Origin: Leucoraja ocellata
Lineage: Eukaryota
Direction of reading: 5' to 3'
Length of the DNA: 64,000 bases
Assembly: GCA_036785375.1 (NCBI GenBank)
Contig: JAWMAR010000023.1
Location: forward strand, 6,324,001 to 6,388,000
Position numbers: made by a program. Positions 1 to 48,000 of this stretch are shown in pieces; the stretch's first letter is position 1, and every line of letters starts with the position of its first letter.

Positions 1-3000
1 TTGAATCCCACTCCACAAGCTCATCATTTTCATTGGTTCCTCAATCCCCGTCAGAAACACGTTCAACATCTGCACAAGCATCAGTGACAACTGAAACATC
101 ATCGGAATCCCATCCAACTACAGAGGCATCTCGAAACACAATGTCCTCTTCAGAAAGACAGCCAACAGCACATGAATCATCAAGTACAGAGCAGTCAACA
201 CAAACTCATGGAACAACATCAGAAATTCCCTCAGAAAGTGCGTCCTCATCAAAAACCATCGCAACAGCAACAACGTCACCTTTGGTCACTGGGAGCTCAG
301 CGGTAACTTATTCTCAATCATCGCAAATCACATCCTCCAACAACTCTGCAACAGTATCACATCCAATTACAGAAGAATCATCGATCACTGTCTCCTCACC
401 TGAAACACGTCAGACAAATACACAGGAACCTTTTACATCGGCATATCCAAAGACAACACAAGCTTCAACAGAAACTATTTTGACAACAGAAACACATTTA
501 ACAACACCAATCTCAAAGGAAACGGAGCCTCCATCAGTAACCTACCCACGCACAACAGAAGGCTCATCCACAACAGAATTTTCCTCACCAACACCGAATG
601 GTAGACAGGCATCAGCAGCCACATTGTCCACAGCTGAAACACGGTCAGAAACGCAGGAATCAATAAGAACGGAGCATTCAACACAAACCAATGCAAACAC
701 GACACAGAATTCTTCAGAAAGTGTGACTGTTTCAGAACCACATTTTACAACGCAATTTTCAGTCACAACACATTCCTCATCGGAATCATATTCCACATCA
801 GTGAAAGCTTCCTCAACAACAGAACCTTCATCAGAATCACATCCTACAATAGCAGCATCCACGATGGCCACATCCTCTCTGGAAACAACTCCAAAAACCC
901 AGCAATCTTCAAGAACTGAACTATCATCACAATCCAATCCAAGCACAACCAATGTTTCATCAGTCACTGAGTCCTCTTCAGAAACACATTTAACAACATC
1001 AAGTTTATCACAGGTAACTGAGTCCTCAACAGAAACATACTCCAGTTCGACGCCGGTTTCATCAAAAACTGAATCACCCTCAGAGAGCCATCAGACCACA
1101 GAGTTGCCTTCAAGCTCCTTGTCCTCATCAAAAACACATCCAACAACATTACAGGAATCATCATCAACAGAGCTTCCAACAACAGCATATCCAACATTGA
1201 CATCTGCTTCATCTGTTAGTGTGTCCCCATCTGAAACCCACCTAACAACAACACCACTATCATCGCCAACTCAGTCCTCAGCAGAGACCTATCCAACAAT
1301 ACAAACATCCACAAACAAACCTTCATCAGAAACACACCCGACAACAGTGGAATCGTCAAGCACACAGCATTCAACGCAAACACATCAAAGTTCAACGGAA
1401 GTTTCATCAGTCACTGTGTCGCCAGTTGAATCCCACTCCACAAGCTCATCATTTTCATTGGTTACTCAATCCCCGTCAGAAACACGTTCAACATCTGCAC
1501 AAGCATCAGTGACAACTGAAACTTCCTCGGAATCCCATGCAACTACAGAGGCATCTGGAATCACAATGTCCTCTTCAGAAAGACAGCCAACAGCACATGA
1601 ATCATCAAGTACAGAGCAGTCAACACAAACTCATGGAACAACATCAGAAATTCCCTCAGAAAGTGCGTCCTCATCAAAAACCCTCGCAACAGCATCAACG
1701 TCACCTTTGGTCACTGGGAGCTCAGCGGTAACTTATTCTCAATCATCGCAAATCACATCCTCCAACAAATCTGCAACAGTATCACATCCAACTACAGAAG
1801 AATCATCGATCACTGTCTCCTCACCTGAAACACGTCAGACAAATACACAGGAACCTTTTACATCAGCATATCCAAAGACAACACAAGCTTCAACAGAAAC
1901 TATTTTGACAACAGAAACACATTTAACAACACCAATCTCAAAGGAAACGGAGCCTCCTTCAGTAACCTACCCACGCACAACAGAAGGCTTATCAACAACC
2001 AAATTTTCCTCACCAACACCGAATGGTAGACAGGCATCAGCAACCACATTGTCCACAGCTGAAACACAGTCAGAAACGCAGGAATCAACAAGAACGGAGC
2101 ATTCAACACAAACCAATGCAAACACGACACAGAATTCTTCAGAAAGTGTGTCCGTTTCAGAGCCACATTTTACAACGCAATTTTCAGTCACAACACATTC
2201 TTCATCGGAATCATATTCCACATCAGTGAAAGCTTCCTCAACAACAGAACCTTCATCAGAATCACATCCTACAATAGCAGCATCCACGATGGCCACATCC
2301 TCTCTGGAAACAACTACAAAAACCCAGCAATCTTCAAGAACTGAACTATCCAATCCAAGCACAAGCAATGTTTCATCAGTCACTGAGTCCTCTTCAGAAA
2401 AACATTTAACAACATCAAGTTTATCACAGGTAACTGAGTCCTCAACAGAAATATACTCCAGTTCGACCCCGGTTTCATCAAAAACTGAATCACCCTCAGA
2501 GAGCCATCAGACCACAGAGTTGCCTTCAAGCTCCTTGTCCTCATCAAAAACACATCCAACAACATTACAGGAATCATCATCAACAGAGCTTCCAACAACA
2601 GCATATCCAACATTGACATCTGCTTCATCTGTTAGTGTGTCCCCATCTGAAACCTACCTAACAACAACACCACTATCAGCGCCAACTCAGTCCTCAGCAG
2701 AGACCTATCCAACAACACAAACATCCACAAACAAACCTTCATCAGAAACACATCCAACAACAGTGGAGTCGTCAAGCACACAGCATTCAACGCAAGTACA
2801 TCAAAGCTCAACAGAAGTTTCATCAGTCACTGTGTCGCCAGTTGAATCCCACTCCACAAGCTCATCATTTTCATTGGTTCCTCAATCCCCCTCAGAAACA
2901 CGTTCAACATCTGCACAAGCATCAGTGACAACTGAAACATCATCGGAATCCCATCCAACTACAGAGGCATCTCGAAACACAATGTCCTCTTCAGAAAGAC

Positions 3001-45000: not shown

Positions 45001-48000
45001 TCTTTACCAGATGGGCTACAGCAGTCTGAGGAGACATTGGCTCACACCTTTTCAAGGGCAATGAAGAGTAGACTATAAAATACTGGCTTTGCCACTCCCT
45101 AAAAATGAACAAAATCAATTAATCAAAAAATCTGATCTTCCCCTTTTCCTCTCAGACATTCAGATCCTGGCACTCCACAGAAGTGGTACTCGATTGATGA
45201 AGAATATTTCAGGTTTCCACATACAGGTAATTGAATACCACCTTTGCATGCAATATAACCCACAACGTTTACCTTTCATACAAGTATTTTGATAGCATGT
45301 GACATATAAAATAATTGTATTGGTTGTCAGTTTAGACTTTTTGCCTAAATGCCCATCCTCTTTTTTAGAATGTGTCATTATCTTAGCAATGTTTAGCTAC
45401 AGTTTTTAACAAGGTGCTTAGGTTGATTCAAATGTTTCATTAGCTGGCATATTAAGTCAAAAGTCGTAGGTGTCTTCTCAGGTAAAACAAATTTGGATTC
45501 CATCCAAGTCTGATCAGAAATTAGGACCTCTGTGCAGTAGATGGAGCTCAATGGGATATATGGAGAAATGTTCTTAACCCAAAGTGTGTGACCTTCTCGG
45601 GTGAGCAAGCAGGCAAAGATTACAACGGCGTCTGTGTGCATTTAAAATATTTAGGTAATTTAGTTGGAGTTTCCACAACAATAAAAATAAAATATATATT
45701 TTGCATGCCAACTTCCCTGCCATTTCGCTGCCAGGAATCCAGGACAATCCTCAGTATCGACTCAGTGCTGTAAAAGGAGGTGACAACGATGGCAGCAATC
45801 ATTTATTGACAATACTGGAAGAGGGATCCAATTGGCATTTCATTGTGTGTGGGGAAAGTGAGGCTATCATTCAAAGAGTGGACACACCTATGCTTTATAT
45901 CAGGAACAACAAACAATTTGCTTGAGGAACTCAGCAGGTCGAGTAGCATCTGTAGATGTCAAGGAATAGTCAGCGATTTGGGTCAAAACCTTGTATTAGG
46001 ATTCTCTGGCAAATTCTTTGTTGCTTCAGATGCCATCAAACACTTTATATCGCCAGTGCTGCTTGCAACAAAATAAATTGTATTATTATTTCAGTTAGTA
46101 TAGATGGTATTTTAGGACTTCAATGTACCCTGGTCATAGCATATCAACACATATTTCTCTCACATACAAAAACTGCAACTCACTGAACTTGTCTCAAAAT
46201 TTAGAGATTCTGCAGTAAAGCCATTATTGTGTCAAATGTTATTCCCCTCCCATCTCACCCCTCCCCCATCCTCCAGATCTGACTACAGAGTCACTAGCGC
46301 CAAATACTGGCAAAACACTGGGGAGGAGAAAAGGAAGATACAACCTGGAAAATAATCCTTCATTCAATGACGATTTCGATTCTGGTGTCTGGAGACCAAA
46401 CTTAGACAAAGTAGATACAGAGGCTGAGGTAAATTGAATGTTGCGTGCAATGTCATCGTGATCTTATAATCTATTGAGGAAAAATGGTTTATTATTGCCT
46501 TTAATAATGTGGCGATTTGTTTTCTCCCTGCCAGATACGAGCCAAGCGTCCCGAAGTGGTTATGCCGGTTGATCAGTGACAATTGATGCCAATGTTAGAA
46601 CGTCACAGCCCACAGTAGTTTAGACAACTTTGTTCAACATGTATTAACTAAAGGGCATTTAAGCTTCCCAAAACAAAGTTAAAACTATATTTTCAAAATA
46701 CTTTGTTTGTTGCATGAATATTTCTGAGAAATAAGAAAAATTCATACTGCTCAGTAACTCAGTTTAACATTTTTTTGTTTTTACAGTTTTATTGTTCCAG
46801 AAAGCTCAGTAATGATTTGATTGATATCAGTGTCCTATTATTTTCATGTTACAAGGTTTTCTCAGTTCTCAATGAGACAAATAAACAGTGATTCAATGCG
46901 TCTACGAATCTTCAAAACAAGAGGGAGAACGGAACAAGAGTGTTGTTGCATTTGCTCTTCACAATTAATGTTTGAATACAGTAATCTGGTCTATTTTGGG
47001 AATATAGGACAAAAAAAATGACGGAAAATCATTTTACTTCAGTTCTCGAACAAAAAGAATGAATACCTGGGTGGTGCACGAGGGTATATACATGGAACTT
47101 AAGCCAAATCACGGATATAACCTTTAAGAGAGGAAAGATTATATTATAATTACAATAAGACAGTGGGTTAATTGAAAACCTTGATTTAACATTCACATTT
47201 TTAGTCTGTTTAATTTTTGTAATAAACTTTTCAAATATTTTTTGTCAGAAAGCGTTAAGGAAAGTACATCTCTTGACTATTGTCGACTGTGATGTAGTTT
47301 AACTGTACAATAATTGTCCTGTTTATTTAATACCAAACTATTTTACTGACTCATTTACTTATTCTAAATTGAATATGACTGTTTACAGATAAATAAAGAA
47401 TTGTTGTATATGAATTGAATCTGCTTCGTGTGTCCACAAGTATATTGGCTGAATGTTCTCACTTTTAGTGGTAGAAAGTGCTGGGGAATGGTTTATAAAT
47501 AAGGACATTATCTTGACAACTATGACTTTTGAAATGCAAGGGATGAAAGCGAGAAGATAATCATTTGATATCAGTATTTTGGATCAAAGGGAGTTATTGA
47601 TCTGCCAAACTTCCCATTTCTCCAGGAGGCAGTTGATGGAATTCCAAGATGACTTGCAAGTGAGAGACAACATTTGTAGGAAAGAACTGCAGATGCTGGT
47701 TTAAACCAAAGATAGACACAAAAAGATAGAATAATTTAGCAGGTCAGACAGCATCTCCGGAGAAAAGGAATAGACAACGTTTTGGGTCGAGACCCTTCTT
47801 CTGAATTGTCAGTTCCCATGCATGGTTTTGGCATAAATTGGTTTAGGATCAATGTGCATGAGGCAATGAGCACCATGTACATTCATAGAGAAATTAACAA
47901 ATTACATGTTTTAAATGCAGATGTATCTTACTTAAGGAGCATTTTTTTTTTAACTTCAAAACAAGCACAGATCCTAAGAGCAAGAAGTTTTTCTAGCTTC

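What the first reader, a model, noticed from the sequence alone, without database searches (positions are those of the whole stretch)
1..46579. Giant MUC3/17-type membrane mucin with a single >38.9-kb coding exon built from a 475-aa repeat
Seen: an unbroken reading frame of ~13,000 codons whose 5' end is outside the window, then a phase-consistent EGF-SEA-EGF-TM-tail exon chain. Established: this architecture defines MUC3/12/17 glycocalyx mucins, and the largest well-known human exons (TTN ~17 kb, MUC16 ~22 kb) are much shorter; only the longest fully resolved mucin PTS exons are comparable. Inference: a >1.3-MDa apoprotein with an unusually long repeat unit, probably in a cartilaginous fish, likely unannotated or fragmented by gene predictors.
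Basis: partly seen in the sequence, partly recalled or inferred. Interest (0 to 1): 0.75.

Follow-up and report, generated by a model that had tools for sequence, protein, structure and literature searches.

The report
Giant membrane mucin gene, shark/ray
This is a real but ordinary kind of gene: the 3' part of a huge cell-surface mucin of a shark or ray, whose sugar-carrying part is one coding exon of about 39 kb made of 27 near-identical 475-residue repeats, a size already reported for human MUC3B.

Summary
Frame 3 is open from base 3 to 38957 (12,984 codons, 5' end outside the window). It consists of 27 tandem units of 1,425 nt (475 aa; 96.6-100% identical to the first unit), one partial unit, a unique Ser/Thr-rich linker and an 8-Cys EGF-like module. 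Eight GT-AG introns follow, one more exon than I could derive from the ORF list alone (45156-45226). The nine exons are phase-consistent and end at TGA 46577-46579. Exon by exon they align in order, at 46-88% identity, with a 442-aa sawfish model named "mucin-17". Relatives of that model carry a Pfam SEA domain, and its AlphaFold model matches solved SEA domains. The last exon, and the tails of three elasmobranch relatives, match the printed human MUC17 C-terminal peptide. The class I PDZ ending of MUC3/12/17 is absent, the 3' neighbour is an ODAD1-like gene rather than TRIM56, and MUC13 could not be excluded by a tree with named sequences. Human MUC3B exon 2 is 39,267 bp, so the size is matched, not unprecedented. 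Verdict: a new member of a known kind. Copy number and expression remain untested.

The parts
3..38889 (+). Exon 1 as seen in the window: giant coding exon, 5' end outside the window, ending with 1 base of a split codon before the donor CCCG|gtaagt
   Evidence: colinear with P0001 up to 38888
3..38354 (+). 27 tandem units of 1,425 nt (475 aa) forming the PTS (mucin) domain; 49% Ser+Thr
38355..38534 (+). Partial 28th unit (first 180 nt of the unit, 97.8% identity)
38535..38750 (+). Unique Ser/Thr-rich linker after the array
   Evidence: aligns with the start of P0001
38751..38855 (+). EGF-like module 1 (8 Cys, residues 12917-12951 of the in-window exon translation)
   Evidence: Cys positions; Pfam EGF_2 only E=0.14, below cut-off; aligns with the Cys pattern of P0001 and P0002
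39304..39425 (+). Exon 2: first part of the SEA domain (aligns with P0001 118-157)
40445..40509 (+). Exon 3: middle of the SEA domain, up to the residues before the G-S site (P0001 158-178)
41781..41983 (+). Exon 4: SEA domain from the putative autoproteolysis site (Gly 41785-41787, Ser 41788-41790, then I-I-I) to its end (P0001 180-249)
   Evidence: the 41983 donor (ACA|gtaagt) was chosen over 41932 because homology runs to 41985
42465..42627 (+). Exon 5: 4-Cys stretch and first four Cys of EGF-like module 2
43722..43883 (+). Exon 6: last two Cys of EGF-like module 2, the transmembrane helix (about 43789-43863) and a basic stop-transfer W-R-R-K-K
   Evidence: weak Pfam TM_ErbB1 E=0.0023; helix 322-355 in the model of P0001
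45156..45226 (+). Exon 7: cytoplasmic tail piece with the conserved W-Y-S-I-D-E-E-Y-F-R-F motif; it is needed to keep the phase
   Evidence: tblastn of P0001, 87.5% identity over 24 aa; splice sites read
46277..46428 (+). Exon 8: cytoplasmic tail
46535..46579 (+). Exon 9 coding part: last 14 residues and stop TGA 46577-46579; no class I PDZ ending
46880..46885 (+). AATAAA, a possible polyadenylation signal about 300 nt after the stop
   Evidence: read; function inferred

Best explanation
The window holds the 3' part of a functional gene for a giant type I membrane mucin of an elasmobranch, of the SEA-EGF class and most likely of the MUC3/12/17 type. Shown: a single open exon of at least 38,887 nt encodes about 12,850 residues of Ser/Thr/Pro-rich repeats, followed by EGF-like 1, SEA, a 4-Cys stretch plus EGF-like 2, one transmembrane helix and a tail of about 97 residues spread over eight small exons. 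Inferred from what is established for MUC1/3/12/17: the repeats are densely O-glycosylated into a stiff bottle-brush. Scaling from the review's figure of up to 1 um for the 4,073-aa MUC17 domain gives about 3 um here. The SEA domain would cut itself at G|S during folding, leaving the mucin rod bound non-covalently to the membrane stub so that it can be shed under force. The conserved tail would handle sorting or signalling, but not through a class I PDZ ligand. The array evolves by unequal exchange or conversion. Central units differ by 0-9 substitutions, the four 3' edge units by 11-49 from the others, and units 1-2 and 3-4 form a two-unit higher-order copy. Selection acts on frame and composition rather than on sequence: the ratio of non-synonymous to synonymous variant alleles per possible change is about 0.8, with no stops and only in-frame indels.
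For: Open frame, period and units. Frame constraint: 0 stops among 118 variant alleles, indels of 9, 9, 51, 51 and 3 nt, 39 synonymous against 79 non-synonymous alleles where 1,138 and 2,875 changes are possible. PTS content never falls below 37% in any 30-aa window of the unit, so no intron hides inside a unit. 8 of 8 introns are GT-AG with consistent phases. All nine exons are colinear with P0001, 'mucin-17 [Pristis pectinata]', at 46-88% identity, and with two shark proteins at 43-75%. 49 of 55 columns with at least 80% consensus in a 35-row family alignment are kept by the window's exons, including G-S and all Cys. SEA: Pfam SEA scores 33.6 bits in P0003 (cut-off 26.4), 25.8 in P0002 and 15.4 in P0001. 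Profile searches of the PDB hit the SEA region of ADGRF1 at E=0.0045 and 8.9e-6, and TMPRSS11D at E=0.017. The AlphaFold model of P0001 with the alignment has pLDDT 75.5, above 90 over residues about 70-355, with strands 170-179 and 183-192 flanking G181-S182. 7 of its 10 best Foldseek PDB matches are SEA-domain entries (MUC16 SEA, TMPRSS6, 2e7v; E 1.5e-4 to 1.9e-3, TM by target 0.56-0.62 for the isolated SEA chains). MUC3/12/17 type: the printed human MUC17 C-terminal peptide aligns with the last residues of P0001-P0003 (Smith-Waterman score 43-44, reached by 0 of 5,000 shuffles) and with exon 9 alone (score 28, reached by 15 of 5,000). The nearest ESM Atlas clusters of P0001 are named mucin-12 (0.98), Mucin-12 family (0.96) and mucin-3A (0.92).
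Against: No expression data exist. The signal peptide and start lie outside the window. Exon by exon, no Pfam or PDB hit is significant, so the SEA and EGF assignments rest on relatives and on a predicted model of a relative. The site reads G-S-I-I-I, not G-S-[V/I]-V-V. The tail ends P-V-D-Q, which is not a class I PDZ ligand, and the relatives' tails are not either. The 3' neighbour is ODAD1-like, not TRIM56. Lang et al. 2006 (PMC1552070, passages) found MUC3/12/17 homologues 'missing in chicken as well as in fishes' and only Muc13 in fish. Exon 7 shows a weak likeness to a printed human MUC13 tail piece (score 20, reached by 62 of 2,000 shuffles). Automatic names are noisy: one shark relative is called IMPG2 and one teleost relative 'serine-rich adhesin'. 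Units 18 and 19 are identical, and copy number cannot be checked without reads.
Confidence: 0.8

Rival explanations
1. The gene belongs to the MUC13 lineage or to a common ancestor-like branch, not to MUC3/12/17. MUC13 also has PTS, SEA, EGF-like domains, a TM helix and a tail, and was the only such mucin found in fish in 2006.
For: PMC1552070 (passages): MUC3/12/17 homologues seem to be missing in fishes, while Muc13 is present. PMC10984281 (passages): MUC13 has a SEA domain and three EGF-like domains. The window has 8 Cys before SEA and 10 after it, which could be counted as three modules. Exon 7 shows a weak likeness to a printed MUC13 tail piece (62 of 2,000 shuffles reach the score). There is no PDZ ending and no TRIM56 neighbour.
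Against: The tail end matches the printed MUC17 C-terminal peptide (0 of 5,000 shuffles for three relatives, 15 of 5,000 for exon 9). The C-terminal part of MUC13 was not available for the same test. The PTS domain lies in one exon, whereas chicken and zebrafish Muc13 have one exon per repeat (PMC1552070, passages). No relative or Atlas cluster shown was named mucin-13. No HEG-like gene lies within 17 kb 3' of the stop.
Confidence: 0.2
2. The gene is real, but the number of units (27 and more) is an assembly artefact: an expansion or collapse of a near-identical 1.4-kb tandem array.
For: Central units differ by only 0-9 substitutions and units 18 and 19 are identical (1 of 351 pairs). Arrays of this kind are known to be hard to assemble (PMC9578598, abstract and section 17).
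Against: 25 of the 27 units have a sequence found in no other unit. There is an ordered gradient with diverged 3' edge units, a two-unit higher-order copy at units 1-4, and a shared 51-nt deletion in the neighbouring units 22-23. This is the pattern expected of a real array evolving by unequal exchange, not of a copy-paste error. There are no N and no frame breaks.
Confidence: 0.15
3. The locus is a dead or silent gene copy whose frame is open only because the units were copied recently.
For: High unit identity means that few independent mutations have tested the frame. There is no expression evidence.
Against: 0 of 118 variant alleles is a stop (P = 6e-4) and all length changes are in frame. 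All eight small exons are intact with canonical splice sites, and 49 of 55 family-conserved columns are kept.
Confidence: 0.05

Closest known systems
Human MUC3B (and MUC3A), chromosome 7q22 MUC3 cluster
   Same: A single PTS exon of the same size class: MUC3B exon 2 is 39,267 bp (13,089 aa) and MUC3A exon 2 is 15,873 bp. Small exons for SEA, TM and tail follow (PMC9578598, sections 17-18 read). A sub-period of about 17 residues exists inside the shark/ray unit (z = 5.7 at lag 17), the same period as the human 17-aa repeat.
   Different: The human arrays are built from 17-aa repeats (166 and 549 copies), while here the homogenised unit is 475 aa in 27 or more copies. There is no order similarity with the printed human 17-aa consensus (best 8 of 17, reached by 290 of 300 shuffles). 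The human genes have 12 exons, which I take to mean 10 after the PTS exon, against 8 here. The human tails end in a class I PDZ motif and this one does not.
Human MUC17
   Same: PTS in one exon, EGF-like domains, SEA, TM and a short tail (PMC13643018, passages). The core of the C-terminal peptide (I-R-x-x-R-P-x-V and the preceding D-x-E) is shared with exon 9 and with three elasmobranch relatives.
   Different: MUC17 has 60 repeats in 4,073 aa (PMC13643018), about a third of this length. Its -T-S-F PDZ ending (PMC6705488, passages) is absent here. Its neighbours are ACHE and TRIM56; here the 3' neighbour is ODAD1-like.
'mucin-17' [Pristis pectinata], P0001, 442 aa
   Same: It is colinear with all nine exons at 46-88% identity, with the same Cys pattern, G-S site, TM helix and tail motifs. 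It is probably the orthologue in another elasmobranch.
   Different: The public model begins inside the Ser/Thr-rich region and has no repeat array, so the giant exon is not represented.
MUC13
   Same: A membrane mucin with PTS, SEA, EGF-like domains, TM and tail (PMC10984281 and PMC1552070, passages).
   Different: It is small. Its PTS domain is split into one exon per repeat in chicken and zebrafish, and it lies next to HEG (PMC1552070). Neither feature is seen here.
MUC16 and MUC1 SEA domains; SEA domains of TMPRSS and ADGRF1
   Same: Best structural and profile matches of the SEA part. MUC1 and MUC16 carry the G|S[V/I]VV cleavage motif (PMC13643018, passages), which is close to the G-S-I-I-I seen here.
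   Different: Only 12-15% sequence identity in the structural alignments. MUC16 has many SEA domains and no flanking EGF modules (recalled).

Membership tests
MUC3/12/17 membrane mucins | [quoted passage not shown] | tested here: met
   One open exon of at least 38,887 nt. Units abut without spacers, and PTS content is at least 37% in every 30-aa window.
MUC3/12/17 membrane mucins | Juxtamembrane SEA domain flanked by EGF-like domains, then one TM helix and a short tail | tested here: met
   Met by homology, not directly. The exons align in order with relatives that carry Pfam SEA (P0003 33.6 bits, cut-off 26.4). The model of P0001 matches solved SEA domains. The Cys patterns of both EGF-like modules are kept. 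Exon by exon, Pfam and the PDB gave nothing significant. The joined protein was not searched.
MUC3/12/17 membrane mucins | SEA autoproteolysis motif G|S[V/I]VV (PMC13643018, passages) | tested here: inconclusive
   The window reads G-S-I-I-I (41785-41799). Relatives read G-S-I-I-A or G-S-I-V-T. G and S are at least 90% conserved in 35 rows. V to I is conservative, and cleavage itself is untested.
MUC3/12/17 membrane mucins | Class I PDZ-binding motif at the C-terminus (PMC13643018, PMC9578598, PMC6705488, passages) | tested here: not met
   Exon 9 ends P-V-D-Q before TGA. P0001, P0002 and P0003 end D-E-Q, G-E-H and D-E-P. None has S/T at -2 together with a hydrophobic last residue.
MUC3/12/17 membrane mucins | Sequence homology of the cytoplasmic tail with a named family member | tested here: met
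   The printed human MUC17 C-terminal peptide scores 43-44 against the last 40 aa of P0001-P0003 (0 of 5,000 shuffles reach it), 28 against exon 9 (15 of 5,000), and 16 against exon 8 alone (1,392 of 5,000, not significant).
MUC3/12/17 membrane mucins | Position between ACHE and TRIM56-SERPINE1 (PMC9578598, PMC13643018) | tested here: not met
   The only recognisable gene in the 17 kb 3' of the stop is ODAD1-like (Pfam ODAD1_CC 46.7 bits, cut-off 27). The 5' side is outside the window. The papers document this synteny for mammals.
MUC3/12/17 membrane mucins | SEA-EGF-TM part groups with named MUC3/12/17 rather than MUC13/1/16 in a tree | not testable with these tools
   The representatives found carry no names. 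The last word-indexed search gave one misnamed teleost protein. Lower-scoring unnamed hits were left unused.
MUC13 | SEA domain plus three EGF-like domains (PMC10984281, passages) | tested here: inconclusive
   There are 8 Cys before SEA and 10 (4+6) after it. Whether the 4-Cys stretch counts as a third module is unclear.
MUC13 | In non-mammals the PTS domain is split into one exon per repeat; the gene lies next to HEG (PMC1552070, passages) | tested here: not met
   The units are contiguous coding sequence. No HEG-like gene lies 3' of the stop. The 5' side could not be tested.
SEA domain (Pfam PF01390) | Score above the gathering cut-off on the protein itself | tested here: not met
None of exons 2, 3 and 4 (0 of 3) gave a SEA hit at E up to 10. 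The relative P0003 passes.

The most novel reading that the evidence does not exclude
The MUC3/12/17 lineage, with its single giant PTS exon and the MUC17-type tail core, already existed in the common ancestor of sharks, rays and mammals, contrary to the 2006 view that it is a late vertebrate invention. The PDZ-binding ending and the ACHE-TRIM56 position would then be later additions.
Probability: 0.35. Interest if true: 0.5.

Novelty: new member of a known kind. Interest (0 to 1): 0.35.

Why it matters
The gene shows how badly giant mucin genes are represented in annotation: the closest public model is 442 aa where about 13,300 or more residues are encoded. It gives a non-mammalian example of a PTS exon of about 39 kb. 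It also suggests that the MUC3/12/17-type glycocalyx mucin is as old as jawed vertebrates, with a conserved tail core but without the PDZ ending that anchors the mammalian proteins. For mucin biology it offers a natural comparison: a rod of similar length built from a 475-aa unit instead of a 17-aa one. It does not open a new kind of system.

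Tried and rejected
(1) Pfam exon by exon, 8 pieces including one repeat unit: only sub-threshold hits (EGF_2 E=0.14, TM_ErbB1 E=0.0023) and no SEA.

(2) PDB sequence search with exon 4 gave 0 hits. Exon 2 gave 7 hits, all at E of 0.28 or worse and unrelated.

(3) The AlphaFold model of P0001 without an alignment had pLDDT 40.1 and was unusable. It was repeated with a 35-row alignment.

(4) Tandem Repeats Finder does not see the array because its longest period is 500. 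It reports only a 20-nt minisatellite.

(5) Rfam at gathering thresholds on 38000-64000 gave 0 matches.

(6) I tested whether the ~17-aa sub-period reflects conservation of the human MUC3 17-aa repeat. Rejected: the best match is 8 of 17, reached by 290 of 300 order-shuffles, and no window reaches 9 of 17.

(7) I tested a printed MUC13 tail piece against exons 6-8. It is weak: the best result is exon 7, where 62 of 2,000 shuffles reach the score.

(8) Names for the 147 unnamed representatives could not be obtained.

(9) The word-indexed search for long relatives (927-2,645 aa) found 1 protein among 7,204 candidates, a teleost protein misnamed 'serine-rich adhesin'.

(10) Hidden introns inside the units, as in Muc13 of chicken and zebrafish, were rejected on composition.

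(11) The alternative donor 41932 for exon 4 was rejected because homology continues to 41985.

(12) A direct splice from 43883 to 46277 was rejected. It shifts the frame to a stop near 46355 and skips the conserved exon 7.

(13) Literature: no paper in the held library combines 'mucin', 'elasmobranch' and 'SEA domain'. 'Transmembrane mucin' with 'cartilaginous fish' gave 5 papers, none on this gene by listing. 'Longest exon' with 'mucin' gave 10 papers, none relevant by listing. A search combining shark with MUC17, MUC12, mucin-17 or mucin-3A (any two terms) listed 12 of 336 papers, none relevant by listing.

Full report
**Observation.** Among stop-to-stop frames of at least 300 codons the window holds exactly one: 3..38957 on the + strand, 12,984 codons, with no stop before the window's first base. 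The window has no N. The translation is 26.6% Ser, 22.7% Thr, 9.4% Glu and 7.2% Pro, with 8 Cys that all lie in the last 46 residues of the exon. GC content (0.43-0.44) and a strong GC skew (-0.39 to -0.42) are uniform up to 38 kb and change after that.

**Repeat array.** The best autocorrelation lag is 1,425 nt, with identity 0.862.
- blastn of the first unit finds 27 contiguous units and a 180-nt partial unit, at 96.6-100% identity.
- 22 of 27 units are 1,425 nt. The others are 1,416 (2 units), 1,374 (2 units) and 1,422 (1 unit), all in-frame differences.
- Tandem Repeats Finder cannot see this period and reports only a minisatellite elsewhere.

**Is the open frame more than chance?** Yes.
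- From base composition, P(no stop in 475 codons) is 2e-10.
- The other five frames have 10-76 stops per unit.
- The 27 copies carry 114 variable columns and 118 variant alleles, 39 synonymous and 79 non-synonymous. None creates a stop, although 6.1% of possible changes would (P = 6e-4).
- Per possible change, the non-synonymous to synonymous ratio is about 0.8. The frame and the composition are kept, not the exact sequence, as expected for a mucin domain.
- PTS content is 37-70% in every 30-aa window of the unit, so no part of a unit looks intronic.

**Is the array real?** Only 1 of 351 unit pairs is identical (units 18 and 19).
- Central units differ by 0-9 substitutions, and the four 3' units differ by 11-49 from the rest.
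- Units 1-2 and 3-4 are a two-unit copy.
- Units 22 and 23 share a 51-nt deletion.
- This ordered pattern fits an array evolving by unequal exchange. It does not prove the copy number, which needs spanning reads.

**Gene model.** The giant exon ends at 38889 (CCCG|gtaagt). The further exons are 39304-39425, 40445-40509, 41781-41983, 42465-42627, 43722-43883, 45156-45226, 46277-46428 and 46535-46579, with stop TGA at 46577-46579.
- All 8 introns are GT-AG.
- The phases are consistent, and the coding bases after the last full codon of exon 1 sum to 984 (328 codons).
- Exon 45156-45226 came to light only through homology. Without it, the frame runs into a stop near 46355.
- An AATAAA lies at 46880-46885.
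- The in-window part of exon 1 alone encodes 12,962 aa, 1,356 kDa, with 6,406 Ser+Thr.

**The joined step was left out.** Every search with window sequence was made exon by exon. Exon by exon, Pfam gave nothing significant (EGF_2 E=0.14; no SEA), and PDB sequence searches with exons 4 and 2 gave nothing useful. The domain calls therefore rest on relatives.

**Relatives.**
- Exon 4 finds one protein among 65 candidates: P0001, 'mucin-17 [Pristis pectinata]', 442 aa, 67% identity, E=7e-16.
- tblastn of P0001 hits all nine exons in order at 46-88% identity.
- P0001 (residues 66-442) finds 4 proteins among 3,284 candidates: itself, a Chiloscyllium protein, a Heptranchias protein named IMPG2, and a Paramormyrops 'mucin-3A'. 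These match the window less well, at 36-75%.
- The source is therefore an elasmobranch, closest to the sawfish among what was found. Nothing suggests a human origin.
- A profile of the four proteins finds 675 proteins at E up to 1e-3 among 1.84 billion representatives (215 at 1e-10 or better). The longest among the best 150 is 3,410 aa.
- Added as separate fragments to a 35-row alignment, the window's exons keep 49 of 55 columns with at least 80% consensus. One of the six misses is the start Met, which no exon covers.

**SEA and EGF.**
- Pfam SEA scores 33.6 bits in P0003 (cut-off 26.4), 25.8 in P0002 and 15.4 in P0001.
- The profiles hit the SEA region of ADGRF1 (E=0.0045 and 8.9e-6) and of TMPRSS11D in the PDB.
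- With the alignment, AlphaFold models P0001 at pLDDT 75.5, above 90 for residues about 70-355. Two strands flank G181-S182, and a helix spans 322-355.
- 7 of the 10 best Foldseek PDB matches are SEA-domain entries.
- Exons 2-4 align with P0001 residues 118-249, that is, the SEA part.

**Which family?** The features taken from papers are these: a single-exon PTS domain, a juxtamembrane SEA with the G|S[V/I]VV motif, EGF-like domains, a class I PDZ ending, and the ACHE...TRIM56 position (PMC13643018 and PMC9578598, passages and sections 16-18).
- Met: the single-exon PTS domain and the domain order.
- Close: the site reads G-S-I-I-I.
- Not met: the PDZ ending, since the tail ends P-V-D-Q and the relatives likewise lack it.
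- Not met: the 3' neighbour, which is ODAD1-like (Pfam 46.7 bits).
- For the MUC3/12/17 type: the printed human MUC17 C-terminal peptide (PMC6705488, passages) aligns with the tails of P0001-P0003 (0 of 5,000 shuffles reach the score) and with exon 9 alone (15 of 5,000).
- Also for it: the nearest Atlas clusters of P0001 are named mucin-12 and mucin-3A (a lead only).
- Against it: Lang et al. 2006 found only Muc13 in fish (PMC1552070, passages), and MUC13 shares the domain set (PMC10984281, passages). A printed MUC13 tail piece resembles exon 7 only weakly (62 of 2,000 shuffles). Non-mammalian Muc13 has one exon per repeat, unlike this gene.
- A tree with named sequences could not be made. I put the MUC3/12/17 type at about 0.7 and MUC13 or an ancestor-like branch at about 0.2.

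**Novelty.** Human MUC3B exon 2 measures 39,267 bp and 13,089 aa (PMC9578598, section 18). The 38,887 nt seen here are therefore matched in print, though this exon continues beyond the window. What differs is the 475-aa unit homogenised to about 99%, against 17-aa repeats in human MUC3A/B. The unit has a faint 16-17-residue sub-period (z = 5.7) but no order similarity with the human consensus. I found no paper on SEA-type membrane mucins of elasmobranchs in the held library (listings only). This is a new member of a known kind.

**Unchecked.**
- Expression.
- Copy number of the array.
- The 5' end of the gene.
- Synteny beyond the window.
- The spliced protein's own Pfam or fold result.
- The named phylogeny.
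- The supplements of PMC9578598, which were closed.
- The collections metagenome contigs and viral contigs, which were closed and not searched.

Noticed in passing
window 57020-57145, 58130-58429, 62756-62983 (+): A second gene on the + strand, 3' of the mucin. ORF 62756-62983 matches Pfam ODAD1_CC (46.7 bits, cut-off 27, E=3e-12). The two upstream coiled-coil ORFs look like earlier exons of an ODAD1/CCDC63-type outer-dynein-arm docking protein; that likeness is recalled and has no Pfam hit. It is not a neighbour known for MUC3/12/17 or MUC13.
   Followed up: partly
window 48355-48780: A GC-rich 20-nt minisatellite of 20.9 copies with 74% matches, in a segment of GC 0.56. It creates long Pro/Gly-rich open frames on both strands, for example 48180-48902 (+) and 48287-49063 (-), which are probably not genes.
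   Followed up: no
window 41226-41321, 47670-47804, 50308-50460, 53393-53583, 53941-54101, 55361-55491, 61848-61943: A short interspersed repeat of about 50-125 nt at 74-91% identity, in both orientations, with one copy inside intron 3 of the mucin gene and an inverted pair at 53440-53583. It looks SINE-like and was not identified.
   Followed up: partly
window 43978-44306 (intron 6), 49216-49788, 51038-51279 (-), 54128-54613, 59500-59745 (-): Open-frame fragments that resemble the C-terminal part of a LINE ORF2 seen in many cartilaginous-fish proteins (recalled). Pfam gave no hit for the pieces tested.
   Followed up: no
window 3-38354, inside each 475-aa unit: A faint sub-period of 16-17 residues: z = 5.7 at lag 17, with further peaks at 33, 50, 67 and 82-83, against a 95th percentile of 3.4 for the maximum z in shuffles. 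The motif [S/P/T]-x-E-[S/T]-[H/Y/R]-x-[S/T]-[S/T] recurs 9 times per unit. The long unit thus seems to have grown from a short repeat.
   Followed up: partly
P0007, P0031, P0046-P0048, P0057: Several unnamed representatives of 1,100-3,100 aa match the SEA part of the profile 5-18 times each. These are multi-SEA proteins of the MUC16 kind (recalled), with SEA domains close to this family.
   Followed up: no
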